Part shown: positions 3,537 through 57,765 of the stretch, piece by piece
How positions within the stretch are numbered: position 1 is the first letter of the stretch
How the letters are laid out: each line of letters starts with the position of its first letter
Program-made: the position numbers and the translations under genes
Origin: a bacterium
Lineage (GTDB): Bacteria > Moduliflexota > Moduliflexia > Moduliflexales > JAUQPW01
DNA: 64,000 nt
NCBI GenBank assembly: GCA_030550175.1
Contig: JAUQPW010000001.1
Location: 10,898-74,897 of the forward strand
Direction of reading: 5' to 3'
The notes under the pieces: generated by a model
What the model was told of the DNA's origin: nothing
Seen by the model: the letters and a program-made list of their open reading frames with translations, nothing else
Databases searched by the model: none

Positions 3537-3959
3537 AACTTATCTTTAGTAACTACGGTTATAGGACCTGTGCTTATCACCGATTCTTTGGATTTTTCCT
3601 CCTACTATAAAATAGATTGACGACCAGATCTCTTTCAGTTTAACCGATGTGGGGGTTAAAAATCAAATACGAAGTGTGAAAAGAAAAAATTTTTAAAGTC
3701 CCGGTTTGCGGTTTATACTAACTTGTAGTTAAATGAGTTGGGAATTACTTTAAGTCGGAGCCATTTCCATTAGTAGATGGGACTTTCCCAGACCTTTAGG
3801 TTATTAAAAAAGTTTAAGTAGAAAACCTCTTTTTTATAAGATCATCAGGATTGCTACAATTAAAAATTGACTTTATCCTGGAAGGTTAGATATAAATAAA
3901 ACTGAAAATCTGAATCTCAGGGTATAATAGCTTCTACGTTGAAACATCGCATAAACTAT

Positions 3960-4320
3960 AGGGGCAGTCCATAGGCATCAAGTTAAGGATTAGACCTGGG
4001 TCTAGATCCCCCTTGTTCCCCCTGGAGGGGGGAAAGGGGGCATAGGCGCCAGGATAAGAGAGAGATTCATCCCCCTTCCTGACCTCCCCCCGCTTTGCAG
4101 GGGAAGGAACTTTGAAGTGAAGTTCCCTCTCCTGTGAAACGGGGGAGGAACAGGGTAGGGGCGCCTTAACCTGGCGCGTATGGGGACAAGGGGAGTATTC
4201 GGGCTGAAAAAATAAGGCTTTTCCCTTCTTAGCTTGATGCGTATGGGGGTGGCCCTTTGTAGCTGTCCTGTTTAAGGGCAACCCTGGGTGATGGCCCTGC
4301 AGGTTATACGACATTTCTAT
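3960..4320. repeat. GC-rich interspersed repeat cluster (scrambled copies of repeat family A)
   Basis: Contains ttaacctggcgcgtatgggg (4166-4185), which recurs in inverted orientation at 46537-46557. Contains gcgccaggataagag (4046-4060), which shares gccaggataaga with the copy at 8677-8690. Also holds ccccc...ggggg hairpins. The 126-aa minus-strand ORF here is a repeat translation artefact. Confidence 0.6.
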
Positions 4321-4378
4321 TCAGTGGTAGAAGGTTCTTTAAGAATACCATAACGCTTCTTTTTGAAAAATTTAGTGT

Positions 4379-8542: not shown

Positions 8543-8639
8543 TCGTTCTATGAACGGTGGACCCTAGACTATAAGGATTTGTAACCCCGGTATTTATCCT
8601 CCCTGCCGATCCAGGTATAAAAATCCGGGATATGCGGTT

Positions 8640-9106
8640 CGTAACTCTAAGAGGTTTTTCTTAACCCCCTAACCTCCCGCCAGGATAAGAAGGTTAGCCC
8701 CAGCGGGGCGACCTATGGATAGCTCTTAGGCGGATAACAGATTCTTCTTTCCCTCACCCCAGACCCTTCTCCCACGCTATGGGAGAGGGGAACCGGCACA
8801 TCTCCAGGTCAATTTCCCAAGCTTTATTCCGGCACCTATGCCCTCACTCCCCCTCTTCTGAAGCTTCAGGAGAGGGGAAAGGGAAGTGACAAGACCCTTG
8901 CGCTCCCAGGGTCAAGTTTTTCTACCTTTATCCCGGTACCTATACCTCCTAACCCTCTTTCCGCATCGGGAAGGGGGAACCCGGAGATGACCTGGATCCT
9001 GACTTTCCCTTTCCCTGGGAGGGAAGGGGAGTCGCAGGAGTTAGAAAGCTTGAAGGGGCAGAGAACTTAAATCCGCGCCCCTGTTGCCCTTGTAAAGTTT
9101 AACAGT
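8640..9106. repeat. Intergenic repeat block: family-A 32-bp core plus two degenerate ~100-bp tandem units carrying four CT-rich/GA-rich hairpins
   Basis: 8683-8714 ggataagaaggttagccccagcggggcgacct is identical to the reverse complement of 46662-46693. The unit ccaggtcaatttcccaagctttattccggcacctatgccctcactcc is repeated as cagggtcaagtttttctacctttatcccggtacctatacctcctaaccc. Hairpins include ctcccacgctatgggagagggg and cctcttctgaagcttcaggagagggg. Confidence 0.6.
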
Positions 9107-10750
9107 TTATTTAACAAAATTTAATCCGTGGGGAACCAGTTGTGGAAAAACGTAAGCATACATCATAACGATAAGTCCTACAATAGCCCCTAAAACAACA
9201 CTATGCCATAGGACGAATCGAAAGATTTTACCCTCATTTCCGACCTGATTGGTCGCGGCGGTGGATACTACAATACTTTGAGCATCGATCATCTTGCCCA
9301 TAACACCCCCGGCGCTGTTAGAAGCGGCCATCAGGATGGGATCCATGCCGAGTCGCTCGGCGGTAATCCTTTGAAGACTCCCAAAGAGCGCATTGGAGGC
9401 CGTATCACTTCCGGTCAGAGCTACACCTAACCATCCCAGCATGGCACTGAAGAAGGGAAATAGCCAGCCGGTCCGGGTAAAAGCGAGACCCAGTACAGCA
9501 TCCAGTCCGGAGTATCGTGTCACAAATCCCAGTCCTAACATAGAGGAAATGGCAATCAAGGGCATTTTCATACGCCTCGCCGTCTTTTTAAAGATCCTCC
9601 CCAGTTGAGCCGGAGAACAGCCTGACACAAATCCGGATATAATAGCCGCGATAAAGCATCCGGTTCCGGTGGCAGATAGCCAGTTGAAATCATAGATTGC
9701 CTTTTCTTTAGTTAACTTAGGGACTACCGGTGTGGTTCTGGCTACCGCCTCGTTAAGCCCTGGCCAGGGAAAGGTGTAGGTCACTTTATTGAGTTGTGCC
9801 TTGATAGAGGGAAGCCCCCAAATCAACACCATAATAGATAAAATGAAAAAGGGGAGCCAGGCCACCAGAACTTCTCCGGTAGTATATTTATGCGGAGATA
9901 CTTCCATATGCCTTTCATGTTCGAAACGCCAGAGGGTTCTCGGCTGCCAAAACCGGAGAAAAATAATCATGGCAACCAGAGAAACAATAGCTCCTATAAT
10001 ATCTACCAGGTTGCTGTCTACATAATTAGACCAGTAGAACTGGGTCGCTGCAAAGGAGACGCTGGTTACAAAAATAGCAGGGAAAACTTCAAAGGTCTCT
10101 TGCCAGGATACCATGGTCTTTACAAGCCAGAAAGGGACGATGAGTCCGGTGATGGGAAGAATTCGACCGATCATAGCGTTCAGGTCGGACTCTGGAAGTC
10201 CGGAGACGGCCGCCAAGGTATGAACTGGAGTTCCAATGGCTCCCCAGGCTACTGGAGCAGTATTGGCGATGAGGCAGAGGGCCGCTGCATAAAAAGGTTC
10301 AAAACCAAGACCTACCATAAAGGCTGCCGAAATAGCTACCGGAGCTCCAAATCCGGCAGCCCCTTCAATAAAAGCTCCAAAGGAATAAGCTACCAAGAGA
10401 GCCTGTAGCCTTCGATCTGCAGAAATACCTCCTACAGATTCCTTCATAATTTCAAACTTACCTGTTTCTACCGAAATATCGTAAAGATAAACCGCTGCAA
10501 AGACAATCCAGGCAATTTTGACTAAACCGAAAGCAGCACCGTAAAAAAACGTAGAGATGGATAAATGCCAGGGCATCCCAAAGGCTACGCTAGCCGCTAA
10601 AATGGCTGTGATGGCGCCACCAAAAGCAGCCAGAGCGGCTGAAGTCCTTATTACAGCCAGTAAAAAAAATAAAACAACGACCGGTAAAGCCGCGACAATG
10701 GTGGATAAAATCCAATTATTAAAAGGATCGTAATTTTGTATCCAGGGCAT
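9107..10750 (-). CDS. lldP: L-lactate permease (LctP family)
   Basis: 547 aa with about 12-14 TM segments. The N-terminus MPWIQNYDPF.NW.LS..VAALP and overall hydrophobic pattern are characteristic of LctP/LldP. Confidence 0.8.
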   Translation of the reverse strand: MPWIQNYDPFNNWILSTIVAALPVVVLFFLLAVIRTSAALAAFGGAITAILAASVAFGMPWHLSISTFFYGAAFGLVKIAWIVFAAVYLYDISVETGKFEIMKESVGGISADRRLQALLVAYSFGAFIEGAAGFGAPVAISAAFMVGLGFEPFYAAALCLIANTAPVAWGAIGTPVHTLAAVSGLPESDLNAMIGRILPITGLIVPFWLVKTMVSWQETFEVFPAIFVTSVSFAATQFYWSNYVDSNLVDIIGAIVSLVAMIIFLRFWQPRTLWRFEHERHMEVSPHKYTTGEVLVAWLPFFILSIMVLIWGLPSIKAQLNKVTYTFPWPGLNEAVARTTPVVPKLTKEKAIYDFNWLSATGTGCFIAAIISGFVSGCSPAQLGRIFKKTARRMKMPLIAISSMLGLGFVTRYSGLDAVLGLAFTRTGWLFPFFSAMLGWLGVALTGSDTASNALFGSLQRITAERLGMDPILMAASNSAGGVMGKMIDAQSIVVSTAATNQVGNEGKIFRFVLWHSVVLGAIVGLIVMMYAYVFPQLVPHGLNFVK

Positions 10751-15469: not shown

Positions 15470-15610
15470 CTGTCAATCCCCTCTCAAGGGGCTGCATCCT
15501 GGATAGAGGCGATCCTGTGGGGTCCTCAAGCCTCAAGCAGGCAGCCCCTTCCCTCCCCGCACGCGGGGAGGGCCAGGGTGGGGGCAGTCTTTATCCTTAT
15601 ATACCTCATT
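15470..15610. repeat. GC-rich hairpin repeat (family B: ccctccccgcaYgcggggagg) with flanking 10-bp inverted repeat
   Basis: 15551-15572 ccctccccgcacgcggggaggg, compare 35701-35721 ccctccccgcatgcggggagg. Inverted repeat aaggggctgc (15493-15502) / gcagcccctt (15542-15551). Confidence 0.55.
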
Positions 15611-15749
15611 TCCATCATGGGGCCTGGGGTCTTACCCCTTGACTCTCAGGTAAGGTCGTTATCCCGACTTCTCTAAAAAGAAAAGTTTTTTCCTTTTTAA
15701 CTTGACAAACTCCTTCTTATTAGAATATGTTGATATACCAACATTTAAG

Positions 15750-16363: not shown

Positions 16364-19141
16364 ATGGAGCCATTCAACAACGGTCTTAAAGGAAACCTAG
16401 AGATTCTGAATCGTTCTATCACCGGGTCTGTTGGGAAGGGTTTAAAAATCGAACGATTTTTTACCAAACCTGGCATTCACCCCTTTGATGAACTGGAATG
16501 GGAACTTCGGACGGCTCTCATTACCAATGAAAGGGGAGAAAAAATCTTTGAACAAAAAGATGTTGAAGTTCCCAAAACCTGGTCTCAGACGGCTACCAAC
16601 GTTGTGGTCCAGAAGTATTTCCATGGTACCCTGGGGACCCCCCAGCGGGAACGAAGTGTGAAGACTTTGATCAACCGGGTAGCTCGTACCATTACCGGCT
16701 GGGGAATCCGGGATGGATATTTCGCCTCCGACGAAGATGCAGAGGCCTTTTACCAGGAACTCTGTCATATTCTGGTCAATCAGAAAGCGGCCTTTAACAG
16801 CCCGGTATGGTTTAATGTGGGGATTGAACCCAAACCCCAGTGCTCGGCATGTTTTATAAATTCGGTGGAAGATACCATGGAATCCATTCTGGATCTGGCC
16901 AAGACCGAAGGGATGCTTTTCAAGTACGGTTCAGGAACCGGTACGAATTTCTCGACCCTCCGTTCTTCAAAGGAAAGGCTTTCGGGGGGTGGGATACCCA
17001 GTGGGCCTGTCTCCTTTATGCGCGGATACGATGCCTTCGCGGGGGTCATCAAAAGTGGAGGAAAAACCCGAAGGGCGGCCAAAATGGTGATCCTTAACAT
17101 CGACCACCCAGATATCGTAGGATTTATTAACTGTAAGGCCAACGAAGAAAAAAAGGCCTGGGCGCTTATCGAAGCGGGATACAGTGGAGATTTCAATGTT
17201 CCGGGAGGGGCGTACGATAGCGTTGCTTTCCAGAATGCCAATCACAGTGTTCGGGTTACCGATGAGTTCATGTGGGCGGTTTTAGAAGATAAAGAATGGA
17301 AGACCCGAGCAGTAACTACAGGCCAGATCATGGATACTTATAAGGCTCGGGATCTTATGCGGATGATTGTAGAATCGGCATATATTTGCGGGGATCCGGG
17401 TTTACAATTTGATACGACCATCAATGACTGGCATACCTGCCCGAACACAGGTCGGATTAATGCCAGTAACCCCTGCTCAGAGTATATGCACCTAGATGAT
17501 AGCGCCTGCAATCTCTCTTCCCTGAATCTCATGAAGTTCCGAAAGGACAATGGAGAATTCGATATCGAAGCTTTTCGCCATGCCGTAGATATCATGATCC
17601 TGGCCCAGGACATCATTGTAGATAATGCCAGTTATCCTACTCCGAAAATTGATAAAAACGCCAAAGCTTACCGGCAGTTAGGATTAGGGTATGCGAATTT
17701 GGGAGCGCTACTGATGGCCCGCGGACTGCCCTACGATAGCGATGAGGGAAGGGCTTATGCTGCGACTATTACAGCGCTTATGTGTGGGGAAGCCTATCGG
17801 ATGTCGTCGATCCTTGCAAGTCGAATAGGTCCCTTTGAAGGGTATGCCAAAAATCGGGAACCCATGCTTCGAGTTATCCAAAAACACCGGGAACATGTAG
17901 ACAAAATCAACCGATCTTTGGTACCCCATGAGTTATGGACGGCCGCAAAGGAGGTCTGGGATGAGGCTTATCTCCTGGGAAGTGAGTATGGGTATAGAAA
18001 TTCCCAGGTTACCGTACTGGCCCCTACGGGAACTATTGCGTTCCTTATGGATTGTGACACTACCGGTATAGAACCGGATATCAGCCTGGTTAAGTATAAA
18101 AGGTTGGTAGGTGGAGGACTCCTTAAAATCGTCAATCGAACGGTTCCAGAAGCTTTGAAAAAACTCGGCTACTCTGCAAACCAGATCCAGGCTATTTTAC
18201 AATACATTGACCAGAACGATACCATTGAAGGAGCTCCAGAGCTAAAACCGGAACATCTACCGGTTTTCGATTGTGCTTTCAAACCCTTAAAAGGAACCCG
18301 ATCCATCCACTATAATGGGCATATTAAAATGATGGCTGCCGTTCAGCCTTTCATCAGTGGGGCTATCAGCAAAACGGTTAATATGCCCCATGAAGCAACT
18401 CCCGAAGACATCTGGCAGGTATACATGGATGCCTGGAAGTTAGGATTAAAAGCTATTGCTATTTATCGTGACGGATGTAAGCGGACACAGCCTTTAAGTA
18501 CTTCCAAGGAAAGTCCTGGGGTTAAAACCCTGGGTCCTGAGCCAAAATTAAGCTCACACTCAGTCGATTTCAAGCCGGTCCGTAGACGACTCCCGGATGA
18601 AAGGAAGGCGATCACCCATAAGTTCAGTGTTGCAGGTCATGAGGGGTATATTACGGTGGGTATGTATGAAGACGGGAAACCCGGTGAAATCTTTATTGTT
18701 ATGTCCAAGGAAGGATCTACCATCTCAGGACTCATGGATGCCTTTGCTACCGCTATCTCCATAGCTCTCCAGTATGGGGTCCCCTTAGAAGTTTTGGTGA
18801 ACAAATTCAGTCATATGCGGTTCGAACCTTCTGGATATACGGGGAATAAGCAGATTCCCTTCGCTAAATCCATCATGGATTACATTTTCCGATGGCTGGC
18901 GTTAAAGTTCTTACCGGAAAAGGCAGAAACCCACGTGCTAGAACCTTCTATTCCTAAATCCCTGAGTAACGGCACCCCCGGTTCTGAGGCTCCAGATGAA
19001 GAACGTCTGGGTATATTGGAAAAACAAATCTTCCAAACTCAGGCCGATGCACCCCTTTGCAGTGATTGTGGTTGCTTGATGGTGAGAAATGGTTCTTGCT
19101 ACAAATGCCTGAATTGTGGAGCTACCAGCGGCTGTTCATAA
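16364..19141 (+). CDS. nrdJ: Class II ribonucleotide reductase, adenosylcobalamin-dependent (NrdJ)
   Basis: 925 aa. Active-site loop SNPCSEYMHLDDSACNLSSLNL (thiyl-radical Cys). The C-terminal tail has a CxxC...CxxC cluster (CSDCGCLMVRNGSCYKCLNCG), as in monomeric NrdJ. Sits 43 nt downstream of nrdR. Confidence 0.9.
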   Translation: MEPFNNGLKGNLEILNRSITGSVGKGLKIERFFTKPGIHPFDELEWELRTALITNERGEKIFEQKDVEVPKTWSQTATNVVVQKYFHGTLGTPQRERSVKTLINRVARTITGWGIRDGYFASDEDAEAFYQELCHILVNQKAAFNSPVWFNVGIEPKPQCSACFINSVEDTMESILDLAKTEGMLFKYGSGTGTNFSTLRSSKERLSGGGIPSGPVSFMRGYDAFAGVIKSGGKTRRAAKMVILNIDHPDIVGFINCKANEEKKAWALIEAGYSGDFNVPGGAYDSVAFQNANHSVRVTDEFMWAVLEDKEWKTRAVTTGQIMDTYKARDLMRMIVESAYICGDPGLQFDTTINDWHTCPNTGRINASNPCSEYMHLDDSACNLSSLNLMKFRKDNGEFDIEAFRHAVDIMILAQDIIVDNASYPTPKIDKNAKAYRQLGLGYANLGALLMARGLPYDSDEGRAYAATITALMCGEAYRMSSILASRIGPFEGYAKNREPMLRVIQKHREHVDKINRSLVPHELWTAAKEVWDEAYLLGSEYGYRNSQVTVLAPTGTIAFLMDCDTTGIEPDISLVKYKRLVGGGLLKIVNRTVPEALKKLGYSANQIQAILQYIDQNDTIEGAPELKPEHLPVFDCAFKPLKGTRSIHYNGHIKMMAAVQPFISGAISKTVNMPHEATPEDIWQVYMDAWKLGLKAIAIYRDGCKRTQPLSTSKESPGVKTLGPEPKLSSHSVDFKPVRRRLPDERKAITHKFSVAGHEGYITVGMYEDGKPGEIFIVMSKEGSTISGLMDAFATAISIALQYGVPLEVLVNKFSHMRFEPSGYTGNKQIPFAKSIMDYIFRWLALKFLPEKAETHVLEPSIPKSLSNGTPGSEAPDEERLGILEKQIFQTQADAPLCSDCGCLMVRNGSCYKCLNCGATSGCS

Positions 19142-19194: not shown

Positions 19195-19250
19195 GGACGC
19201 AGGGAAATATCTCCACATCTCCGCGTCTCCCTATCTCCGTGTCTCAATAG
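19195..19250. repeat. Short repeat (atctccacatctccgcgtctccctatctcc) bounded by the inverted repeat gagacac/gtgtctc; a near-copy lies inside the sucB linker
   Basis: Compare 23158-23225 atctccacctctccgcgtctcc[gcgtctccgcatctccgcgtc]cctctatctcc. Confidence 0.5.
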
Positions 19251-20017
19251 GATGGGTAGCCCAAAACCAGAATCTCTGTACTTGCCGGTAAAGTGGCCTT
19301 GCGGACCTCGAGGGTTGAACTTTCGACTTTACGTACGGGATACTTATCTCCTACAAAAGAAAGAAAGTTGTCGATCATACCTTTAAAATCATACTGCATC
19401 GGAATAACCACCCGGGGTTTCAATTGTTCAATCACAGTTAAGACATCCCTATGACTCATCGTCCAGCTTCCATCTACCGAAATAAGAACAATATCTACTT
19501 TCCCCAAGGTTTTAATCTGTTCTTCACTGAGAGGATGCCCTAAATTACCCAGGTGGGCAATACATAACTCGCCTACTTCAAAGACAAAAATTGAGTTAAC
19601 CCCCAGTCCCCCACCGGTCCGAGTATAAACATTAAAGATTCTTATATCTTTAATTTTCTCATCGATTTTATTCCACTCCCCCCGGGGATTTACCCCTAAG
19701 AGTTGAATGGGATTCCCTTTAACCGCTTTAGTATTATCGTGGGCATGATGAAGATTGCTCACCGTAACAATATCCGGAGGGGTATCTGGAATATAGGGTA
19801 GAAAAGGATCTGTCAAAACGGTTGTACCCTCTGGCGAGGTAATCAAAAAGCTAGAATGCCCCAGTCGTTGAATAAGCACAGAGTTTGTGTTTACCAGCAT
19901 ATAGTTAACTGGAACTACCCAGTGACGGACCATTTCTAAATCACAACCTGCAAACGCCTGGGGCAGAAAAGTAAGGGTGAAAATCAAAGAAATAAAAAAG
20001 GACAAGATCTTTTCCAT
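19244..20017 (-). CDS. Secreted MBL-fold metallo-hydrolase
   Basis: Signal peptide (MEKILSFFISLIFTLTFLPQAFA). HHAHDN metal-binding motif and a later H/D pattern of the metallo-beta-lactamase fold. Confidence 0.65.
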   Translation of the reverse strand: MEKILSFFISLIFTLTFLPQAFAGCDLEMVRHWVVPVNYMLVNTNSVLIQRLGHSSFLITSPEGTTVLTDPFLPYIPDTPPDIVTVSNLHHAHDNTKAVKGNPIQLLGVNPRGEWNKIDEKIKDIRIFNVYTRTGGGLGVNSIFVFEVGELCIAHLGNLGHPLSEEQIKTLGKVDIVLISVDGSWTMSHRDVLTVIEQLKPRVVIPMQYDFKGMIDNFLSFVGDKYPVRKVESSTLEVRKATLPASTEILVLGYPSY

Positions 20018-22166: not shown

Positions 22167-23474
22167 TTAATAGTCCAGCTCCATGGTTTCTAAGTTTCGG
22201 GTAAACGCCTGCAGAAATTGCGCCGCAGTACTTCCATCCACCACGCGATAATCATAGGATAAAGAAGCGTACATCATCCAACGGATGCCGATCATATCTT
22301 CAATTACCACAGGCCGCTTCTTAACTGCACCAATTCCTAAAATCGCAATCTGGGGAGGTTGAATAAGGGGAGTATCTACTACAACCCCGAAAGCCCCGGA
22401 ATTGCTAACGGTAAAGGTTCCTCCCTGGAGTTCTTCAGGCTCGAGTTTTCTAGTTTGAGCTCGATAAATCAGATCCTCAATGGCTTTGGACATTCCCAAT
22501 AAATTTAAGCCTTGAGCCTCTTTAATAATAGGTACAACGACCTTATCTTCCAGAGGTACTGTAAAACCAATATGGATAAATTCCTTTAAAGCAACCGTCC
22601 CATCCTCTATAAGACCGTTTAAAGTAGGAAATTGCTTGAGGGCCTTAACCGTGGCCACCAGGATAAAAGGTAGAAATACCCACTCAGACGACCTTATGAC
22701 CCTCTCTCCCTGGGTTTTTTCCAGGTGCCGGACGATCCGCGTCATATCTACTTCTATCAAAGCGGTTGCATGGGGTACGAGCTGGGGGCCTAAGACCCGG
22801 AGACGTGGGATCGCAGAGATACTAGGTTGCCTGAACATTATTTCCCTTTCCTTACCTTGTGGTTTCTGCACTTCCTCTTCCAGAACTTGAGAGGGAGGAG
22901 GAATCGGCTCGGGTTTCGTTTCTTGAATCCTTTTTTTCGTTTTCAGGTCTGCCAGAATATCCTGCTTCATGATCCTACCACTCGGGCCGCTTCCCTGTTT
23001 CTGCTCAATTTCTTCCAGAGGAATCCCTTCCTTTTCGGCAATAGCCCGGGCCAGGGGAGAAATACGGGGACGTGGGGACGTAGGGACGCCGGGATGCGGG
23101 GGTACCCTTTCGGCCTCCCTATCTTCCTGTCTTTGCGCCTCCATTTCCCCCCGTCCCTCCATCTCCACCTCTCCGCGTCTCCGCGTCTCCGCATCTCCGC
23201 GTCCCTCTATCTCCACCTCCCCCCGTCCCTCCTCTACCTCTGTTTCAATCGAGGCGACTTCTGCCCCCACAGGGACCGTCTCTCCCTCGGCAAACAAGAT
23301 TCGACTGAGTTTTCCTGTGGCCGGAGCCGGCACTTCCGCATTTACTTTATCCGTACTCAGGACCAGAAGGACTTCATCCTTTTTTACAAAATCTCCTTCC
23401 TTTTTGTGCCACTCCAGAATCGTCCCTTCGACTACACTTTCTCCCAATTGGGGTATTGTAACGCTGACTTTCAT
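22167..23474 (-). CDS. sucB: Dihydrolipoamide acyltransferase E2 (2-oxoglutarate dehydrogenase complex), with an unusual E/R/G repeat linker
   Basis: N-terminal lipoyl domain (LSTDKVNAEVPAPATG, lipoyl-Lys). E3-binding domain (SPLARAIAEKEGIPLEEI). Catalytic domain with DYRVVDG (DHR..DG-type). The linker EVEIEGRGDAETRRRGEVEMEGRGEME is encoded by 8-bp tandem repeats. Confidence 0.85.
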   Translation of the reverse strand: MKVSVTIPQLGESVVEGTILEWHKKEGDFVKKDEVLLVLSTDKVNAEVPAPATGKLSRILFAEGETVPVGAEVASIETEVEEGRGEVEIEGRGDAETRRRGEVEMEGRGEMEAQRQEDREAERVPPHPGVPTSPRPRISPLARAIAEKEGIPLEEIEQKQGSGPSGRIMKQDILADLKTKKRIQETKPEPIPPPSQVLEEEVQKPQGKEREIMFRQPSISAIPRLRVLGPQLVPHATALIEVDMTRIVRHLEKTQGERVIRSSEWVFLPFILVATVKALKQFPTLNGLIEDGTVALKEFIHIGFTVPLEDKVVVPIIKEAQGLNLLGMSKAIEDLIYRAQTRKLEPEELQGGTFTVSNSGAFGVVVDTPLIQPPQIAILGIGAVKKRPVVIEDMIGIRWMMYASLSYDYRVVDGSTAAQFLQAFTRNLETMELDY

Positions 23475-35616: not shown

Positions 35617-35689
35617 TGGCTAAAGAAATTGCTAAAGAGGGTTAATAATACCAAGTCGGTATTGAAATGTGGTGGGTAAAGTAGGGACA

Positions 35690-35900
35690 GCCCCGCCCAG
35701 CCCTCCCCGCATGCGGGGAGGAAAGGAGGTTAGGTTAGAAAAAACCTACCTCAGAAAAGGGGAAGGGGCTACCTGCTTGAGAGCGACTGACAGGGGTAGC
35801 TCCAGATGGTTGTCCTGTTGGAAGGGTAGATAGTTGCCGCCCGGCCCTTTAGGCAACATTTTTATTGTGAAGGGGAGGAAATAGTAACGAAATAATCCCC
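35690..35900. repeat. GC-rich hairpin repeat cluster (family B copy ccctccccgcatgcggggagg 35701-35721, plus further hairpins)
   Basis: Near-identical to 15551-15572. Additional hairpins include aggttagaaaaaacctacct and ggctacc...ggtagc. Confidence 0.55.
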
Positions 35901-35961: not shown

Positions 35962-38754
35962 ATGAAAAATCCTGTTACGCCAACTACGGATCCCGTCCAT
36001 GATGTTCTGCGTTATGAACGTCAACCTCTGGATGCGATCTTCGCACCGCGGAATGTTGCTGTAATCGGTGCGACCGAAAAGACTGGCAGTGTCGGACGTA
36101 CCGTTTTGTGGAACCTCATCCATAATCCCTTTGGTGGAGCCGTTTTTCCTGTCAATCCGAACCGACATAGTGTATTGGGGATCAAAGCCTATCCCCATAT
36201 TGGAGCGGTACCCGATCCGGTGGACCTTGCTGTTATTATCACACCGGCACCTACGGTCCCTGGGATCATAGGAGAGTGTGTCGATGCCGGTGTAAAAGGA
36301 GCGATTATCATCTCCGCCGGTTTCAAGGAGTGTGGGCCGGAAGGGGCTGAGTTAGAGCAACAAATCCTTGAGCAGGCACGTCGCGGGAAGATACGCATTA
36401 TCGGACCCAATTGCCTGGGTGTGATGAACCCGCTTACCGGTCTTAACGCCACCTTCGCCAGGACTATGGCACGACCCGGGAATGTCGGCTTTATCAGCCA
36501 GAGTGGTGCGCTGTGTACAGCTATCCTGGATTGGAGTTTACAAGAGAATGTAGGATTCAGTGCCTTCATCTCCATTGGCTCTATGCTTGACGTCAGTTGG
36601 GGGGATCTCATTTATTACCTAGGTGACAATCCCCACACCCACAGTATCGTCATTTATATGGAATCTATAGGGGATGCCCGGTCGTTCCTCTCTGCTGCTC
36701 GGGAAGTAGCCCTCACTAAACCCATCATTGTCATCAAGGCCGGTCGTACAGAGGCTGCTGCGAAGGCTGCAGCTTCCCATACTGGGGCTCTCACCGGTAG
36801 CTATGAAGTCCTGGAGGCAGCTTTTCGTCGTTGCGGTGTGCTTCACGTCAATAATATTGCCTATCTTTTCTATATGGCCGAAGTACTCGCCAAGCAACCA
36901 CGTCCACAAGGTCCACGGTTAACGATTCTCACCAACGCCGGTGGTCCCGGCGTGCTTGCCACCGATGCCCTGATCGCAGAGGGGGGAGAACTGGCGGAAT
37001 TATCCCCGGAAACCCTGGAATCCCTTAACCGGCTTCTCCCGGTTTACTGGAGCCATAACAACCCTATCGATATTTTAGGAGATGCCGACCCTCAGCGATA
37101 TGCAAAAGCCCTGGAGATTGCCGCGAAGGATCCGAATAGTGATGGTCTATTGGTCATTTTGACTCCCCAGGCGATGACCGATCCGACCCAAACGGCAGAG
37201 CAGTTGAAAGCTTACGCCCGGAATAGCCACAAACCTATCCTCGCCAGCTGGATGGGTGGGGCCGATGTTGCAGCGGGAACAGCGATTCTTAACCAGGCTG
37301 GTATTCCTACTTTTCCTTACCCGGACACAGCTGCCCGGGTGTTCAATTACATGTGGCGGTATAGCTATAACCTGCGGGGTCTATACGAAACTCCGGTCCT
37401 CCCGGCAGGGGTAGGGGGATATGAGAGTATCAACACCTCTACTCCCACACCCCCACACTCCCATACTCCTGTATCCCCATTCCAGCGGGCCGAGGAGATT
37501 ATTCAAACTGCCCGCAAGGCCGGTCGAACCCTTCTCACCGAGCCCGAATCCAAGCAGCTCCTCGCCGCCTATGGCATCCCAACGGTGGAAACCCGGGTTG
37601 CTACCCATGAAACCGAGGCGGTCAGACTTGCAGAGGAAATCGGCTACCCAGTTGTCCTCAAGCTCTTTTCTGAAACCATTACCCACAAGACCGACGTGGG
37701 CGGTGTTCAGTTGAATCTGATCAACGCCGAGGCTGTCATACAGGCTTATCGTGCCATCGAATCTTCCGTGCGTGAAAAGCAAGGGGCCAAACATTTCTTA
37801 GGTGTGACCGTCCAGCCCATGATCAAATGGGAAGGTTATGAAATCATCCTCGGCAGTAGTGTTGATCCTCAGTTCGGTCCGGTATTGCTTTTCGGCTCCG
37901 GAGGTCAATGGGTGGAAGTATTTAAAGACCGCGCCCTGGCACTCCCACCCCTTAATACCGTCCTGGCACGGCGAATGATGGAGCAGACCCGTATCTATAC
38001 CGCCCTCAAAGGTATCCGAGGACGTAAATCAGTGGATCTGGCTGCCCTTGAACAACTCCTGGTCCAATTCAGCCAACTGGTCGTCGAACAACTTTGGATC
38101 AAGGAAATTGATGTTAACCCCTTACTGGTCTCTCCTGAACGATTAATTGCGCTGGATGCGCGGGTGATTTTGCACGAACCCCATATCCCGGAAGATAAAC
38201 TACCCAGGCCGGCCATCCGCCCGTACCCAACCCAATATGTATCACCCTGGACCTTGAAGGATGGTACTCCCATCATTATCCGCCCGATCCGCCCTGAAGA
38301 CGAGCCCCTGATGATCAACTTCCACAAAACCCTCTCCGAACGCAGCGTATATTTCCGCTACTTTTATCCCATGCAGTTGAGTCAGCGTATTGCCCATGAA
38401 CGGTTGACACATATGTGCTTCATCGACTACGACCGCGAAATGGCCCTCGTCGCAGACTATACGGATCCTAACACCGGTACCCACGAGATTATAGCCGTTG
38501 GCCGTTTAAGAAAATTGCACGGTACCCCGGAAGCCGAGTTTGCCCTCCTCGTCAGCGATCGATATCAACATCAGGGATTGGGTACCGAGTTGTTACGCAG
38601 ACTCCTGCAGGTCGGTCGTGACGAAAAACTTCAGCGTATCGTCGCCGATATTCTTCCCGAGAATCGAGATATGCAACGGGTCTGTGAGAAACTAGGTTTC
38701 CGCCTCCGCTGGGTAGCCACTGAAGGGGTAATAAAGGCAGAAATCGATCTCTGA
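35962..38754 (+). CDS. pat: Pat-like protein lysine acetyltransferase: ADP-forming acyl-CoA synthetase (alpha+beta) fused to a C-terminal GNAT domain
   Basis: N-terminal CoA-binding/succinyl-CoA-synthetase-like domains ([17 protein letters not shown]-grasp). C-terminal GNAT ([14 protein letters not shown]...[17 protein letters not shown]). A linker [14 protein letters not shown] is encoded by the cacactcccatac repeat. Confidence 0.8.
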
Positions 38755-38880: not shown

Positions 38881-39511
38881 ATGGCTATTTTAAGCTTTGC
38901 CTGGACCAAAGATGAATTTCTCAGTGGCAAAAAGACGGTTAGCCGACGGTGTTGGAAAGAACGTCAGTTAAAAATGTGGCAAAGGCTATGGGATAGTGGG
39001 CGGCTTGTACATGAAACATGGGATAAAGCTCCCTTTGCAGGCGGTAAGTGGACCCATCCGAAGACCCGCCGAATGGGCAATTCTCAAAATAGAACCGTTT
39101 ACCGACGTCCAGTTATGGTTTGAAGCTCGCTGCGATGCTCTCTTAGAACAAAAGGGCCGAGATATTATTCTTATCTTTGGCTATCAGTCCCCAACTTTCT
39201 ATTATGCCCATTTATCCAATCAAACCGACCGGGTTCATAATGGGATTTTCCTTGTCAACGATGCAGATCGGCAACGAATTGATAATGGAAAGGGAATCGC
39301 CCGGCTGATAGATAATAACTGGTACGCCATCCATCTCATACGAAATGTCCAGACAGGTGCTATTCAGGTTTATGTCTCCGATATGCAAACACCGGCACTT
39401 TCTGCTAACGACACCACCTTACAGTGGGGTCGTGTGGGTGTTGGATCCTTTGACGATACAGGAGCATTTAAAAACATTCGCGTGGCCGGTAAGTTAATGT
39501 CTTCAGAATAA
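38881..39511 (+). pseudogene. DUF1080 (LamG-like, 3-keto-disaccharide-hydrolase fold) gene split by a frameshift near 39050
   Basis: Two overlapping ORFs in frames 1 and 2. The frame-2 part carries the DUF1080 pattern (FTDVQLWFEAR..., DNNWYAIHL..., C-terminal GRVGVGSFDDTGAFKNIRV). Confidence 0.4.
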
Positions 39512-39768
39512 AGACAGGAAGTGAGAGGAGCCCTCTCTTACCTTCCCTGTGGGTGGGGAGGGTGGAGAGGTGCATCTATTGAACCAATACAGACTCAAAT
39601 TCCAATAATAGGGTTGACACTTTAGATCCCCGGATATAAAGTCAAATCATATTTTAAAAATCCCAAGGTAAGACCTGTTTGGGAAAAATCGGAATTCTGA
39701 GCAGGTTTATACCGATAATTACGTTCAGGTAATTAAATCCTCACAATCTGGAAAGGAGTGAAGAAACC

Positions 39769-44505: not shown

Positions 44506-45135
44506 GTGAGGAACATGATAATTCAGGATGTGGGACAGCAACATTTGACCAGGATTCAGCCAACAACGGAAGGTATCCGTACCTGGAGAACCTATCTCAA
44601 GGAGTATCAATTTAATAAAAAATATCCGGACGATGCCTATGTGTGGCTTACCTGTATTCTGGCATTGGAGGCCGTTGGGGTCGGCAACTTTGGGGTTGGG
44701 TGTATTTTGATTAATAATCAAGGTGACATATTAGCTCAAGGGCATAACAAAATATTCCATCCTTACTTTCGGAGTGATCGACATGCTGAAATGGTTGTCA
44801 TGGATGACTTTGAGGATGCCCATCCAGAACCTAGCGGGTTGGGTGCTTACTCTTTATATACCTCTCTGGAGCCCTGCCCCATGTGCCTGGTACGATTGAG
44901 TACCTCGGGGATAAACAAAATACTATTTGCTGCCCCGGATGTGTCAGGGGGTATGGTTCATCGAATGAATAACTTACCACCCTTCTGGTTTGAGTTGGCC
45001 CAAGGGAAAATATTTAGCCAGGCACAGTGCTCGCCGGATTTGGTTCATGCGGCTACGCAGATCCTACTTCTTAATTTAAATGAACTAACAACTGAAGTCA
45101 AAGTCAGACAGCGTAAAGTATCCGTATCAATTTAG
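44506..45135 (+). CDS. Cytidine/deoxycytidylate-deaminase-fold (CDA) nucleoside/nucleotide deaminase
   Basis: Zinc-binding H-A-E (RHAEMVV) and PCxxC (LEPCPMCLVRL) motifs. Confidence 0.7.
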   Translation: MRNMIIQDVGQQHLTRIQPTTEGIRTWRTYLKEYQFNKKYPDDAYVWLTCILALEAVGVGNFGVGCILINNQGDILAQGHNKIFHPYFRSDRHAEMVVMDDFEDAHPEPSGLGAYSLYTSLEPCPMCLVRLSTSGINKILFAAPDVSGGMVHRMNNLPPFWFELAQGKIFSQAQCSPDLVHAATQILLLNLNELTTEVKVRQRKVSVSI

Positions 45136-45151
45136 TAGGTGGAAAAAGAAA

Positions 45152-45214
45152 CACCCCCCTGGCCTCCCCCCTCTAATTCCCCCGTATACGGGGGAGGGGG
45201 GGCCAGGGGGGTGT
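45152..45214. repeat. Perfect nested GC palindrome (possible REP-like element or terminator) downstream of the deaminase gene
   Basis: acacccccctggcc tcccccct ctaatt cccccgtatacggggg agggggg ggccaggggggtgt. No T-tract follows. Confidence 0.55.
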
Positions 45215-45315
45215 GTTCAGACAGAAAAGGTGACACCTACTAAATTGTTCCAGTTACCAGCGTAAAATGAGGTAAAACGATTCTATTTGGTATCGAAAAT
45301 GGAGGTCATATAACC

Positions 45316-46128: not shown

Positions 46129-46261
46129 TCAAAACCTAAAGAAAGCCCCCAGAGGGAATAGTATTAGGTTGTGTTTTATTAAAATAGAGGCAGGTTTCAA
46201 TCCTGCCTCTAGGAAAGAACCTTTATGACCATCTAAAAGGTAAAGGGTTATTAACTATAAA

Positions 46262-46440
46262 ATTACCTTCAGGATCTTATAAGTTTTAAAAAAACCGTTG
46301 TCCCCGCATTCAATTCGTTTTGAATTTCTATAGTTCCTCCATGGGCTTCCATAATTTTCTTACATAAACTGAGTCCCAGACCATAACCTCCGGTATCTTT
46401 GGACTGCTCTGAGGATAAGCCTGAGAGATAAACAAATTAT
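46262..46440 (-). pseudogene. Remnant of a sensor histidine kinase gene (C-terminal HATPase_c G2-box fragment only)
   Basis: Minus-strand translation VYLSGLSSEQSKDTGGYGLGLSLCKKIMEAHGGTIEIQNELNAGTTVFFLKLIRS*. The upstream DNA is AT-rich with no continuation. Under 60 codons. Confidence 0.5.
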
Positions 46441-46529
46441 TTCCGAGTTGTATTAAAAATTGTAACAGAAACAGACGGAGTACATTGTTACTTTAATTTT
46501 GCTTATGCTTAACGTTTAAGTGGCTCTCA

Positions 46530-46745
46530 CCCCCGGCCCCCATACGCGCCAGGTTAAGCTGAAAAGCCCCGTCAGGGGCGAACGGTTGGTAGCCCTGACG
46601 AAAGTCGGGGGATTCAGAAATTCAGAATTTTTTCAAGCCCCCTAGCCGCGTCTTGTTAAACAGGTCGCCCCGCTGGGGCTAACCTTCTTATCCCGAAGCC
46701 TGGGTCCCTCGGCCCCTCTCCCATGCAGAATGGTTATTCAAATTT
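46530..46745. repeat. Repeat family A composite copy (contains both the 20-bp and the 32-bp cores seen at 4166-4185 and 8683-8714, in inverted orientation)
   Basis: 46537-46557 ccccatacgcgccaggttaa. 46662-46693 aggtcgccccgctggggctaaccttcttatcc. Confidence 0.65.
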
Positions 46746-46896
46746 AACTTTACAAGATAGGGTTAAAATGTGAGGTAACGGTTTCATAAAACAGATGAAG
46801 AACTTCCCCTAAGGGATTATTTTATAGAGGGAATATAAGGGCAGACTTTAAAGTAGAATCTAAGGAAAATTTCCAAGCGAAAGGAGGGTAGTAAGG

Positions 46897-47889: not shown

Positions 47890-48066
47890 GTATGGGAGTG
47901 GGAAGTATGGAAGTGGAAAAGTATGGAAGTATGGGAGTGGGGAAGTGGAGACTCGTCCACACTCTCACACCCCCATACTTCCATACCCCTATACCCACTC
48001 CCATACCCCCACACTCCCATACTTCCATACCCCCATACTTCTCCACTCTCATACCTCCATACTTTC
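47890..48066. repeat. Long imperfect hairpin built from tandem gtatggRagtgg units and their complement (ccacactcccatac...)
   Basis: 47890-47950 holds four direct units. 47960-48066 is approximately their reverse complement. The motif acccccacactcccatact also occurs in frame inside the pat linker (37455-37475). Confidence 0.65.
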
Positions 48067-56668: not shown

Positions 56669-56886
56669 GTTGCCTGGAAATTTTTTCTTGATAAAATTTT
56701 TTCTTCCCGGGGTTTTGACACTATCCTAAGCTTCATCTATACAAAATATAAGATGGTCTTGGAGGGGTGTGGTAACTACGCCCCTTACCAGGTAAGGTTG
56801 AATAGCTACATTATCTTGAAAAAGGAGTAGGAGACCGCATCGTTTGGGATGCAAACTCCTGCCTTCTCTGAAAAGTATAAACCCAT

Positions 56887-56950
56887 TGAGATTTATGGTT
56901 GATGGTGGTTAGATCGGATGAGATTTATGGTTGATGGTGGTTAGATCGGA
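56887..56950. repeat. Perfect 32-bp tandem duplication (tgagatttatggttgatggtggttagatcgga x2) within a 1.1-kb non-coding leader
   Basis: Copy 1 is 56887-56918 and copy 2 is 56919-56950, identical. Each contains a mini-ORF ATG GTT GAT GGT GGT TAG (MVDGG*). Confidence 0.8.
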
Positions 56951-57765
56951 AAAACAAGAGTCTAAAAATTAGACGTTTCTTCCTAAAAGGATATTCTCTT
57001 CTAAAAAAGAAACTTCTCTACAAAGGAAAGTAAAAAATTGTCAGATTATAGGTCTGAAAGTTAGACCTTCTCCCTATCAGGCCTTCCGTTACGGAAATAT
57101 ATTCCGGTTCTGCCTACCCTCCGGATTGTTCAAACTTCTGGTTCCCATTTTATAAAGTGGTACTTGAATTGCAGAAGAAAATGGTCACATAGCTTACTTA
57201 CAAGAGTTTAATCATAACCCCTGTAAGGCATCTTTATCCCCGTCCATTCAGATACTTTTCCATGCCTTACCGTGAGAAGGCGTATGCCATTTCACAGAAC
57301 GGAAGGGATCATCCAGCAGATTCGCAAGCCGAACGAAGTATCAATTTGAAGTGAAACCTCTTCGGGGACGGGGAAATTTGGAGAGGAGTACGACGGATAA
57401 AACTATACTTATACCCGAAAACGCCTCCTGGCAGGTATATCCCATCAGAAATTTACTGTAGAAATTTTAACCTTGAAATTTTTCTTGAAAAGATTCAGAT
57501 AGAATCATTTATCTAAACCTATGAGAGGTAGCCAGGTAAGGTATCTGTTTCAGTGAAAATCTCAAAGCAATTTCCCCATGAAATCCACGTTGTTGACACC
57601 ATCGGATCCTATGATTAAAGAACAACAAAATCATAAAGAAGTGGCGTCTGACTACAAGGATGTGAAGAAACCGTCCCCTGCTGGTTAAAAGCCGAGATAT
57701 TTTAGTGAGAATTGATAAGGAATATACAGAACCAACCCAATTTTTAATCAAGAAAGGAATAAACC

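What the first reader, a model, noticed from the sequence alone, without database searches (positions are those of the whole stretch)
3960..4320. Family of GC-rich interspersed hairpin repeats shared among at least five intergenic spacers
Identical cores recur in inverted orientation. The 32-mer ggataagaaggttagccccagcggggcgacct is at 8683-8714 and, reverse-complemented, at 46662-46693. The 20-mer ttaacctggcgcgtatgggg is at 4166-4185 and reverse-complemented at 46537-46557. gccaggataaga is at 4048-4059 and 8679-8690. A second family, ccctccccgcaYgcggggagg, is at 15551-15572 and 35701-35721. A perfect nested palindrome lies at 45152-45214. The copies sit between convergent or divergent genes and generate spurious P/G-rich ORFs. 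No transposase is nearby, so these behave like REP/MITE-type elements. They could act as terminators, mRNA stabilisers or recombination hot spots, and two gene remnants lie next to copies.
Basis: seen in the sequence. Interest (0 to 1): 0.5.

Follow-up and report, generated by a model that had tools for sequence, protein, structure and literature searches.

The report
Nested miniature transposons in intergenic spacers
The GC-rich hairpin repeats are real, but they are ordinary leftovers of small non-coding "jumping" DNA elements (MITEs) of several families that have piled into a few gaps between genes, built around a hairpin motif already known from many bacteria.

Summary
All quoted repeats are at the stated coordinates (one is off by one base) and none is expected by chance.

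They are not one hairpin family. They are nests of miniature inverted-repeat transposable elements (MITEs).

- **Main family.** It has 18-bp terminal inverted repeats, CATAGGCGCCAGGWTAAG, and 11-bp target-site duplications. The same termini flank IS4-family (IS421/IS186-like) DDE transposase genes in other phyla. Copies lie at 3970-4245, nested 4041-4182, and 46541-46705, with fragments at 8672-8944.
- **The "palindrome".** The 45152-45214 palindrome is the core of a 141-bp MITE (45117-45257). It has a perfect duplication, CAGCGTAA, and is precisely absent from a relative about 92% identical.
- **Relatives.** They carry the same families at other loci.
- **The hairpins.** They fit the known G/C-rich BoxC/"triplex motif" architecture. 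In several cases the 11-bp duplication spans the linker between the motif's two G blocks, which would explain the nesting.

No transposase was found in about 150 kb of this lineage. No support was found for REP/RAYT, terminators or known RNAs. Whole-genome copy number could not be measured.

Verdict: new members of known kinds, of modest interest.

The parts
3970..4245 (.). Outer IS4-type MITE (276 bp) of spacer A. Its TIRs are 3970-3987 CATAGGCATCAAGTTAAG and 4228-4245 (reverse complement CATACGCATCAAGCTAAG).
   Evidence: The mismatch-tolerant TIR scan gave 4 sites with at most 3 mismatches, against 0.03 in shuffles. The two arms are 16/18 identical to each other. Its target duplication is unclear.
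4041..4182 (.). Inner IS4-type MITE (142 bp) nested in the outer one. Its TIRs are 4041-4058 CATAGGCGCCAGGATAAG and 4165-4182. It carries two internal triplex-motif-like hairpins.
   Evidence: TIRs. The element folds as one long hairpin (z -6.15). Its interior is 79% identical to L082 11750-11843, which lies in a different spacer of the relative.
4030..4040 (.). Left copy of the 11-bp target duplication of the inner MITE (GGGAAAGGGGG). The right copy is 4183-4193 (GGGACAAGGGG).
   Evidence: The two copies match at 9 of 11 positions. The reconstructed target is a triplex motif whose second loop lies inside the duplication.
4246..4361 (.). Extra module to the right of the outer MITE. It is part of the 436-nt block (3926-4361) that the relative lacks.
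   Evidence: Window 3926-4361 corresponds to only 42 nt in L082. By eye the module resembles L089 about 17690-17790.
8616..9065 (.). Spacer B nest. It holds a degenerate TIR plus the 32-mer (8672-8714), right-end TIR variants at 8823-8840 and 8927-8944 (minus strand), triplex-motif hairpins at 8752-8789 and 8851-8879, and a partial double-hairpin MITE at 8948-9044.
   Evidence: The spacer is 564 nt here, 530 nt with different content in L082, and 62 nt in L086.
15532..15615 (+). Element D: a triplex-motif hairpin (15544-15584) with flanks, related to E in inverted orientation.
   Evidence: It is present at the orthologous site in L082 at 90% identity, so the insertion is old.
35661..35781 (-). 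Element E: a copy of D in the opposite orientation. It contains a 33-nt insert that matches the TIR of the double-hairpin MITE family (35723-35757).
45117..45257 (.). F-type MITE (141 bp). Its 23-bp TIRs are 45118-45140 and 45235-45257 (19/23 identical). Its core is the 45152-45214 palindrome. The 8-bp duplication CAGCGTAA lies at 45109-45116 and 45258-45265.
   Evidence: The relative has an exact empty site with a single CAGCGTAA at L089 8657-8664. Other copies are at L082 16444-16548 and L089 18386-18447.
46473..46763 (.). 291-nt insertion block of spacer C, which the relative lacks. It consists of an outer element of about 113 nt with the C-type MITE nested inside.
   Evidence: Window 46473-46763 corresponds to 8 nt in L089 (9863-9870).
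46541..46705 (.). C-type IS4-type MITE (165 bp). The left TIR is 46541-46558 CATACGCGCCAGGTTAAG. The right TIR, 46687-46704, is degenerate. The element contains the 32-mer at 46662-46693. The duplication is CCCCCGGCCCC (46530-46540) and CCCTCGGCCCC (46706-46716).
   Evidence: A homologous copy (81% over 144 nt) lies at the non-orthologous site L089 17516-17659.

Best explanation
The repeats are decayed and nested copies of several families of miniature inverted-repeat transposable elements (MITEs). MITEs are short, non-coding derivatives of DDE-transposase insertion sequences.

**Main family.** It ends in the 18-bp inverted repeat CATAGGCGCCAGGWTAAG. It is bracketed by 11-bp target-site duplications that begin and end in G/C runs. 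These are the termini and duplication length of IS4-family elements, whose ends carry a 5'-CAT tip. The nearest annotated transposase relative is IS421/IS186.

**Inferred mechanism.** The copies were moved by cut-and-paste, in trans, by an IS4-family transposase encoded elsewhere in the genome or now lost.

**Second family.** The element at 45117-45257 has 23-bp inverted repeats and an 8/9-bp duplication. It inserted into the last codons of a gene after this lineage split from a relative about 92% identical.

**The hairpins.** They lie inside some of these MITEs and next to others.

**Inferred cause of nesting.** The IS4-type elements prefer G/C-run targets such as the linker between the two G blocks. 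Resident copies therefore attract new insertions, which produces nests in a few spacers.
For: **Shown**
- TIR motif: 4 sites in the window with at most 3 mismatches, against 0.03 in shuffles.
- Outside the window, the same 21-mer pattern occurs in 73 loci from many phyla.
- It flanks a 434-aa DDE_Tnp_1 / IS4-family transposase in L051. The Pfam domain passes its cutoff, but the NCBIfam IS4 model does not (99.4 bits, cutoff 115).
- It also abuts homologous transposases in L053 and L054.
- These transposases are about 30% identical to IS421.
- IS421 ends in CATAAGCGCTAACTTAAGGG, inserted in a G-run/C-run target.
- Flank identity peaks sharply at 11 bp:

| Element | Matches |
|---|---|
| L011 | 11/11 |
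| L052 | 11/11 |
| L009 | 10/11 |
| L072 | 10/11 |
| window C | 10/11 |
| window A-inner | 9/11 |

- Positions -11 to -9 outside the tip are about 88% G/C in 67 non-redundant flanks.
- The published IS4-family signatures fit: ends CAT-------AA--TAA--- for the IS231 subgroup, and direct repeats of 10-12 bp (PMC2266710).
- IS186 targets GGGG(N6/7)CCCC (PMC5009759).
- F has an exact empty site in L089.
- C-type, A-inner-type, F-type and double-hairpin-type copies lie at non-orthologous loci in relatives L082, L089 and L086.
- Triplex-motif architecture: 6 sites in the window against 0 in 20 shuffles, with E. coli BoxC as a positive control.
- Reconstructed targets of L009, L011 and window A-inner are triplex motifs with the duplication over loop 2.

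**Inferred**
- Mobilisation in trans.
- Self-nesting of new insertions into resident copies.
Against: - No IS4-type transposase was found in the roughly 150 kb of this lineage that could be read.
- Whole-genome copy number is unknown.
- Several ends are degenerate: the right end of C matches 13/18, and the left end of B 12/18.
- The outer A element and L051 have no clear duplication.
- The A and C polymorphisms against the relative are larger blocks, not clean single-element empty sites.
- Competibacteraceae copies share a different conserved flank with no triplex motif. The target preference is therefore not universal.
- JACRDB01 copies dominate the flank statistics.
Confidence: 0.85

Rival explanations
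1. REP/REPIN elements spread by a RAYT (Y1, IS200/IS605-like) transposase.
For: The elements are short GC-rich imperfect palindromes. They are intergenic, occur in both orientations, sometimes occur in inverted pairs, and have no transposase nearby.
Against: - The units are bounded by 18-23-bp terminal inverted repeats and by 8-11-bp direct target duplications. REPs do not make these; that point is from my own knowledge.
- The termini are those of IS4-family DDE elements.
Confidence: 0.04
2. The hairpins are selected cis-acting RNA or DNA structures, such as intrinsic terminators, mRNA stabilisers or an unknown structured RNA, conserved for function rather than spread by transposition.
For: The folds are very stable (z about -6). 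Several sit just downstream of genes. D is conserved at its orthologous site.
Against: - No Rfam family reaches threshold anywhere in the window.
- None of the large hairpins is followed by a T-tract, and terminator-like sites are no more frequent than in shuffles.
- The elements are present or absent between relatives about 92% identical, and occur in both orientations.
- Holder et al. found no regulatory pattern for the E. coli motif (PMC4666352).
- Secondary exaptation of individual copies is not excluded.
Confidence: 0.06
3. The repeats arose by local duplication or gene conversion among neighbouring spacers, without any transposition.
For: The B and C copies share a 32-nt block at 100% identity with abrupt ends, while the rest of the two elements differs. 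This could reflect conversion or recombination.
Against: - Target-site duplications and an exact empty site exist.
- Copies of the same families lie at other loci in relatives.
- The same TIR is found in many phyla, next to transposases.
Confidence: 0.03

Closest known systems
IS421 / IS186 (IS4 family) and MITEs derived from IS4-family elements, such as the MIC231 cassettes of IS231
   Same: - The ends start with a 5'-CAT tip and carry a ...TTAAG/ATAAG block at positions 14-18. IS421 has CATAAGCGCTAACTTAAGGG; here it is CATAGGCGCCAGGWTAAG.
- Target duplication is about one helical turn (11 bp).
- Insertion is into G-run/C-run targets.
- Full-length relatives encode DDE_Tnp_1 transposases carrying the Y(2)R(3)E(6)K motif.
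- Sources; PMC2266710; PMC5009759.
   Different: - The transposases next to this TIR are only about 30% identical to IS421.
- The hosts are environmental MAGs from many phyla, not enterobacteria or Bacillus.
- Several targets here are G-block/linker/G-block rather than GGGG(N6/7)CCCC.
- The window copies are 142-276 bp, non-coding and partly decayed.
- Subgroup assignment (IS231-like or ISH8-like) was not resolved.
BoxC / G/C-rich intrastrand triplex motif (TM_ECO) of E. coli and more than 260 other genomes (Holder et al. 2015, PMC4666352)
   Same: - The three-block architecture is the same: C block, loop, complementary G block, short loop, mirror G block.
- One example is 8752-8789: CCCTCTCC-catagcgtg-GGAGAAGG-gtctg-GGGTGAGG.
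- The L086 copies read CCCTCTCC...GGAGAGGG-gccgg-GGGTGAGG, close to E. coli type B.
- The motifs are intergenic, occur in both orientations, and lie at loci that are rearranged between relatives.
   Different: - Most window copies are sequence variants, such as CCCTCCCC/GGGGAGGG or CCTTCCCC/GGGGAAGG.
- Here the motifs lie inside or abut TIR-bounded MITEs. Holder et al. report no association with mobile elements.
- The one E. coli BoxC locus I inspected has no such TIRs.
- Triplex formation was not tested.
REP/REPIN-RAYT systems
   Same: They are also short GC-rich extragenic palindromes, clustered in some spacers and non-coding.
   Different: The elements here have TIRs and target duplications, and their termini are IS4-like. 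No RAYT has been seen.
ISDge4 (IS66 family, ISBst12 group)
   Same: This is a lead only, and concerns the F-type element. ISDge4 has an 8-bp direct repeat and a TIR tip GTAACTG... (PMC12898284). The right end of F reads GTAACTGGAACAATTTAG.
   Different: Only the first 7 bases match. No transposase partner was found. The parent family of F remains unknown.

Membership tests
MITE (non-autonomous DDE-transposon derivative) | Terminal inverted repeats at both ends | tested here: met
   A-inner arms are 16/18 identical, A-outer 16/18 and F 19/23. C has one good end and one degenerate end.
MITE (non-autonomous DDE-transposon derivative) | Direct target-site duplication flanking the element | tested here: met
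   F has a perfect CAGCGTAA duplication. C matches 10/11 and A-inner 9/11. External copies match 10-11/11. A-outer has no clear duplication.
MITE (non-autonomous DDE-transposon derivative) | Small size and no transposase gene inside | tested here: met
   The elements are 141-276 bp. tblastn with three IS4 transposases found nothing in the window.
MITE (non-autonomous DDE-transposon derivative) | Insertion polymorphism with an exact empty site | tested here: met
   F is absent from L089, which keeps a single copy of the 8-bp target. The double-hairpin element L089 3049-3214 is absent at window 39535-39542. The A and C sites differ by larger blocks.
MITE (non-autonomous DDE-transposon derivative) | Many dispersed copies in the host genome | tested here: inconclusive
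   - Copies lie in three or more spacers over 43 kb of the window.
- Copies lie at non-orthologous loci in relatives.
- Short-read contigs break inside the elements.
- The rest of the source genome could not be read.
IS4 family termini (CAT-tip subgroups IS231/ISH8; IS421/IS186-like) | End signature: CAT at positions 1-3, A at 11(-12), TAA at 15-17 (PMC2266710, Table 1) | tested here: met
   CATAGGCGCCAGGWTAAG has CAT, A at position 11 and TAA at 15-17. Position 12 is G in the main variant and A in the outer A variant.
IS4 family termini (CAT-tip subgroups IS231/ISH8; IS421/IS186-like) | Direct repeats of about 10-12 bp | tested here: met
   Flank identity peaks sharply at 11 bp in 6 elements.
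IS4 family termini (CAT-tip subgroups IS231/ISH8; IS421/IS186-like) | A full-length partner with the same TIRs encoding a DDE transposase with the YREK motif | tested here: met
   - In other genomes only.
- L051 has TIRs at 570-590 and 2037-2057 around a 434-aa DDE_Tnp_1 protein (E 9e-12).
- It scores 99 bits against NF033592, below that model's 115-bit cutoff.
- Its sequence includes YRIRWSVECFLKRCK, read from the translation.
- Homologues lie beside the TIR in L053 and L054.
IS4 family termini (CAT-tip subgroups IS231/ISH8; IS421/IS186-like) | A cognate transposase present in the same genome | not testable with these tools
   None was found in the window or in the roughly 150 kb of lineage DNA held. 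The source assembly is not in the searchable collections: its matches are missing, and searches returned nothing.
BoxC / G/C-rich intrastrand triplex motif | C block, loop, complementary G block, short loop, mirror G block | tested here: met
   My own scan used 8-nt blocks with at most 1 mismatch. It found 6 sites in the window against 0 in 20 shuffles, and it recovered both E. coli BoxC motifs.
BoxC / G/C-rich intrastrand triplex motif | Forms a stable intrastrand triplex | not testable with these tools
   This needs CD/NMR or footprinting, as in PMC4666352.
REP/REPIN-RAYT | Palindromic units without TIRs or target duplications, associated with a RAYT gene | tested here: not met
   The units are bounded by TIRs and duplications. 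A RAYT gene was not searched for genome-wide.
Intrinsic terminator | GC-rich stem-loop followed by a T-tract | tested here: not met
   None of the A, B, C, D, E or F hairpins is called, apart from a minor 5-bp stem at 8896-8911. Counts do not exceed shuffles.
Known structured RNA (Rfam) | Match to a curated covariance model at its gathering score | tested here: not met
   There were 0 matches in the whole window and no tRNA or tmRNA genes.

The most novel reading that the evidence does not exclude
[quoted passage not shown] They have been linked to unstable loci but never to a mobility function. One reading is that they spread, at least in part, as internal cargo of MITEs, and that they also serve as the preferred 11-bp target of IS4-family (IS421/IS186-like) elements, at the G-block/linker/G-block segment. 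That would make them a self-reinforcing insertion hot spot, and would account both for their cross-phylum distribution and for the rearrangements seen at such loci.
Probability: 0.25. Interest if true: 0.55.

Novelty: new member of a known kind. Interest (0 to 1): 0.3.

Why it matters
**Practical value**
- These nests explain spurious P/G-rich ORFs such as 3934-4314 on the minus strand.
- They may explain why the short-read contigs of this lineage end inside them.
- They mark where spacers differ between close relatives.
- One insertion rewrites the C-terminus of a gene.

**Wider point**
- An IS421/IS186-like terminal repeat turns up almost unchanged in MAGs from many phyla, repeatedly beside BoxC/triplex-type hairpins.
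- If that association is general, it would give a concrete mechanism for the spread and instability of a repeat whose origin the literature leaves open.
- As it stands, the finding is a well-behaved example of known element types, not a new system.

Tried and rejected
- **Rfam and tRNA scans of the window.** Nothing was found.
- **Metagenome scan with part of the 32-mer.** It returned 0 hits.
- **Metagenome scan with two blocks conserved in C-type copies.** It also returned 0 hits, even though L089, a JGI contig, contains the pattern. That collection therefore does not hold this lineage, and both negatives are uninformative.
- **Homology search with the HEAT-repeat protein next to spacer A.** It gave only repeat-driven hits and no orthologue, so the search was wasted.
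- **Extending the window with neighbouring proteins.** This returned only short Logan contigs that end in repeats.
- **Perfect-stem hairpin census.** It was too strict and found only D and E. I replaced it with a sliding fold and a triplex-motif scan.
- **Integron attC sites.** I considered these because of the RYYYAAC-like ends, then dropped the idea because there is no cassette array.
- **Terminator reading.** Rejected.
- **Literature search for the TIR sequence.** No relevant paper was found.
- **IS66 origin for the F-type element.** It remains an untested lead.
- **SaiSree et al. 2001 on IS186 targets.** The paper is not held in the library.

Full report
**1. Observation**

- The 32-mer is at 8683-8714 (+) and 46662-46693 (-).
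- The 20-mer is at 4166-4185 (+) and 46538-46557 (-), one base off the stated start.
- GCCAGGATAAGA is at 4048 and 8679.
- CCCTCCCCGCAYGCGGGGAGG is at 15551 and 35701.

Dinucleotide shuffles gave no matches for the long words. The 12-mer is only marginal.

A self-BLAST shows that similarity between spacers is limited to short blocks. That already argues against simple segmental duplication.

A sliding 60-nt fold puts the strongest local structures of the window at these sites. By minimum free energy:

| Site | kcal/mol |
|---|---|
| F | -49.5 |
| A | -38 and -39 |
| D | -33.6 |
| B | about -31 |
| E | -29.6 |
| C | -28.4 |

The window otherwise holds ordinary chromosomal genes of an anaerobe, including NrdD, NrdR, lactate permease and SDRs. 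Its proteins lie on an NCBI contig of 139,961 nt. Cluster-mates at 90% identity or more are named Candidatus Limnocylindrales.

**2. Anatomy of the finding's own coordinates (3960-4320)**

The 20-mer and the 12-mer are two ends of one element. CATAGGCGCCAGGATAAG (4041-4058) and the reverse complement of 4165-4182 (CATACGCGCCAGGTTAAG) are inverted repeats. The same 18-mer recurs at 46541. The 142-bp unit folds as one long hairpin (z -6.15).

A mismatch-tolerant scan found a second, outer pair: 3970-3987 CATAGGCATCAAGTTAAG and 4228-4245. There were 4 sites with at most 3 mismatches, against 0.03 in shuffles. Spacer A therefore holds a 142-bp element nested inside a 276-bp element of the same kind.

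Weaker variants of the end occur in spacer B (8823-8840 and 8927-8944) and at the right end of the C element (46687-46704).

**3. What the inverted repeat is**

A scan of one genome per species for SSSCATASGCGCCAGGWTAAG gave 73 loci. My own estimate of the chance expectation is roughly nine, assuming uniform base composition.
- 23 matches are in a Deltaproteobacteria MAG (JACRDB01).
- 11 are in a Competibacteraceae MAG.
- Others are in Acidobacteriota, Nitrospinota, Gemmatimonadota, Alphaproteobacteria, Bacteroidota, Chloroflexota and more.

Next to the motif the sequences differ between organisms, as expected for a transposon end.

*Link to transposases.* In L051 two inverted copies, 1,482 bp apart, enclose a 434-aa ORF. 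The ORF matches the Pfam DDE_Tnp_1 domain and is most similar to NCBIfam's IS4-family model, at 99 bits against a 115-bit cutoff. It contains a Y(2)R(3)E(6)K string. Homologous transposases lie just inside the motif in L053 and L054.

*Nearest annotated relative.* It is IS421 of E. coli plasmids, at about 32% identity. IS421 ends in CATAAGCGCTAACTTAAGGG and sits in a G7-TTG-C7 target.

*Fit to the literature.*
- The IS231 subgroup of the IS4 family has ends CAT-------AA--TAA--- and direct repeats of 10-12 bp.
- The ISH8 subgroup also has a CAT tip (PMC2266710).
- IS186 targets GGGG(N6/7)CCCC (PMC5009759).

**4. Target duplications**

Flank identity peaks sharply at 11 bp.

| Element | Matches at 11 bp |
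|---|---|
| L011 | 11/11 |
| L052 | 11/11 |
| L009 | 10/11 |
| L072 | 10/11 |
| Window C | 10/11 (46530-40 CCCCCGGCCCC; 46706-16 CCCTCGGCCCC) |
| Window A-inner | 9/11 (GGGAAAGGGGG; GGGACAAGGGG) |

In 67 non-redundant external flanks, positions -11 to -9 are about 88% G/C, although the search pattern did not constrain them.

The outer A element and the full-length L051 show no clear duplication.

**5. Comparison with relatives**

The lactate permease and Bmp proteins led to two sets of relatives.
- A JGI/ENA lineage about 92% identical in DNA (L082-L085, L089-L091).
- A more distant species (L086, L087).

The cleanest result concerns the "nested palindrome".
- 45117-45257 is a 141-bp element with 23-bp inverted repeats, flanked by CAGCGTAA on both sides.
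- The relative has one CAGCGTAA and nothing between.
- The insertion lies in the last codons of the gene 44506-45135 and changes its C-terminus.
- Copies of the same element sit elsewhere in the relative, at L082 16444-16548 and L089 18386-18447.

Other comparisons:
- Spacer C carries 291 nt that the relative lacks. The relative in turn has a C-type copy (81% over 144 nt) inside a 1.1-kb nest that the window lacks.
- The A block 3926-4361 corresponds to 42 nt in the relative. An A-inner-type interior lies in the relative's B spacer.
- Spacer B is 564 nt in the window, 530 nt with different content in the relative, and 62 nt in L086.
- Element D is conserved at its orthologous site, so it is old.
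- A further family has TIR GGTAGGTTTTTTCTAACCTAACC and two internal hairpins. It is inserted at L089 3049-3214, where the window is empty. It explains the 33-nt difference between D and E.

Short-read contigs of the source lineage end inside A, B and C. This is consistent with repeats but is not proof.

**6. The hairpins themselves**

A literature search with hairpin sequences led to Holder et al. 2015 (PMC4666352). The E. coli BoxC-type G/C-rich "intrastrand triplex motif" reads CCCTCTCCC-loop-GGGAGAGGG-(TTA/CCG)-GGGTGAGGG. It is reported in more than 260 genomes, always intergenic and at rearranged loci. The authors found no association with mobile elements.

A scan I wrote for this three-block architecture finds 6 sites in the window, in A, B, D and E, against none in 20 shuffles. 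It recovers both motifs of an E. coli BoxC locus as a control.

Reconstructed pre-insertion targets of L009, L011 and the window's A-inner element are such motifs. In each, the 11-bp duplication lies over the linker between the two G blocks. L052 abuts one.

The association is not universal. Competibacteraceae copies share a different flank. Only a few per cent of single ends have a complete motif nearby, against 0.2-0.5% of control segments.

**7. Rivals**

- *REP/RAYT.* The TIRs, the duplications and the IS4-type ends contradict it.
- *Terminators.* No T-tracts are present, and site counts do not exceed shuffles.
- *Known RNAs.* Excluded at Rfam thresholds.
- *Pure local duplication.* It does not fit the empty site, the copies at other loci in relatives, or the cross-phylum TIR. 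Conversion may still explain the abrupt 32-nt identity between B and C.

**8. Limits**

- No transposase was found in the roughly 150 kb of this lineage that could be read.
- The source genome is not in the searchable DNA collections. Copy number and the presence of an autonomous partner are therefore unknown.
- Trans-mobilisation and self-nesting are inferences.
- The parent family of the F-type element is unknown. The only lead is a 7-base match to an IS66-family end.

**9. Verdict**

What is there is a nest of several MITE families, chiefly IS4-family (IS421/IS186-like) derivatives, built around BoxC/triplex-type hairpins.

These are new members of known kinds. Interest is modest. It rests mainly on the possible general link between IS4-type elements and the widespread triplex/BoxC motif.

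Noticed in passing
window 19201-19253, 23115-23232, 37433-37488, 47890-48070: - These are tandem arrays with an 8-nt period, of the types (ATCTCCGC)n and (GTATGGGA)n.
- The 47890-48070 array is two arrays in inverted orientation that fold on each other (-31.7 kcal/mol).
- 37433-37488 lies inside the ORF 35962-38754.
- The arrays differ in length from the relative, and short-read contigs end in them.
- Their nature is unknown.
   Followed up: partly
window about 46290-46400 (minus strand): This is a remnant of a histidine-kinase C-terminus (…DTGGYGLGLSLCKKIMEAHGGTIEIQNELNAGTTVFLKL*) with no upstream gene body. It is also present in the relative at L089 about 9680-9800.
   Followed up: partly
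window 45109-45265 and gene 44506-45135: The F-type MITE inserted within the last three codons of a cytidine-deaminase-like gene. The predicted C-terminus changes from ...QRKMR* (…QRKMR* in the relative as well) to ...QRKVSVSI*. The gap to the next gene grows from 40 to 180 nt.
   Followed up: yes
window 56887-56950: A perfect 32-nt tandem duplication (TGAGATTTATGGTTGATGGTGGTTAGATCGGA x2) lies inside the largest spacer of the window (56669-57765). A Logan contig starts there.
   Followed up: no
L089 2015-2551, 16349-17032, 17398-18501: These three segments are present in the relative and absent from the window. The last is a 1.1-kb nest holding a C-type MITE, double-hairpin elements, triplex motifs and half an F-type element. 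The first two were not characterised.
   Followed up: partly
L006-L073 (Deltaproteobacteria MAG JACRDB01), e.g. L009 1654-2211, L011 4167-4724: - A 558-bp non-coding element has perfect IS4-type TIRs and 10-11/11 target duplications.
- At least 23 ends were hit in one MAG, many at contig ends.
- Where the flanks could be read, it is always inserted in a CCCCTCTCC...GGAGAGGGG-CCG-GGGGGTGAGG motif.
   Followed up: partly
window 46185-46211: A terminator-like hairpin with T-tail (TAGAGGCAGGATTGAAACCTGCCTCTA TTTT) lies downstream of the SDR gene. A similar hairpin sequence is present in the relative. It is the only convincing terminator signature in spacer C.
   Followed up: no
window 39511-39590: A strongly folding G/C-rich stretch (-32.3 kcal/mol) lies exactly where the relative carries a double-hairpin MITE insertion. 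It looks like an unoccupied target site.
   Followed up: partly
L054 about 300-1760: In this Nitrospinota contig the IS4-type transposase next to the TIR is cut off after about 188 aa. Beyond that point lie different long ORFs, which may be a second insertion. They were not identified.
   Followed up: no
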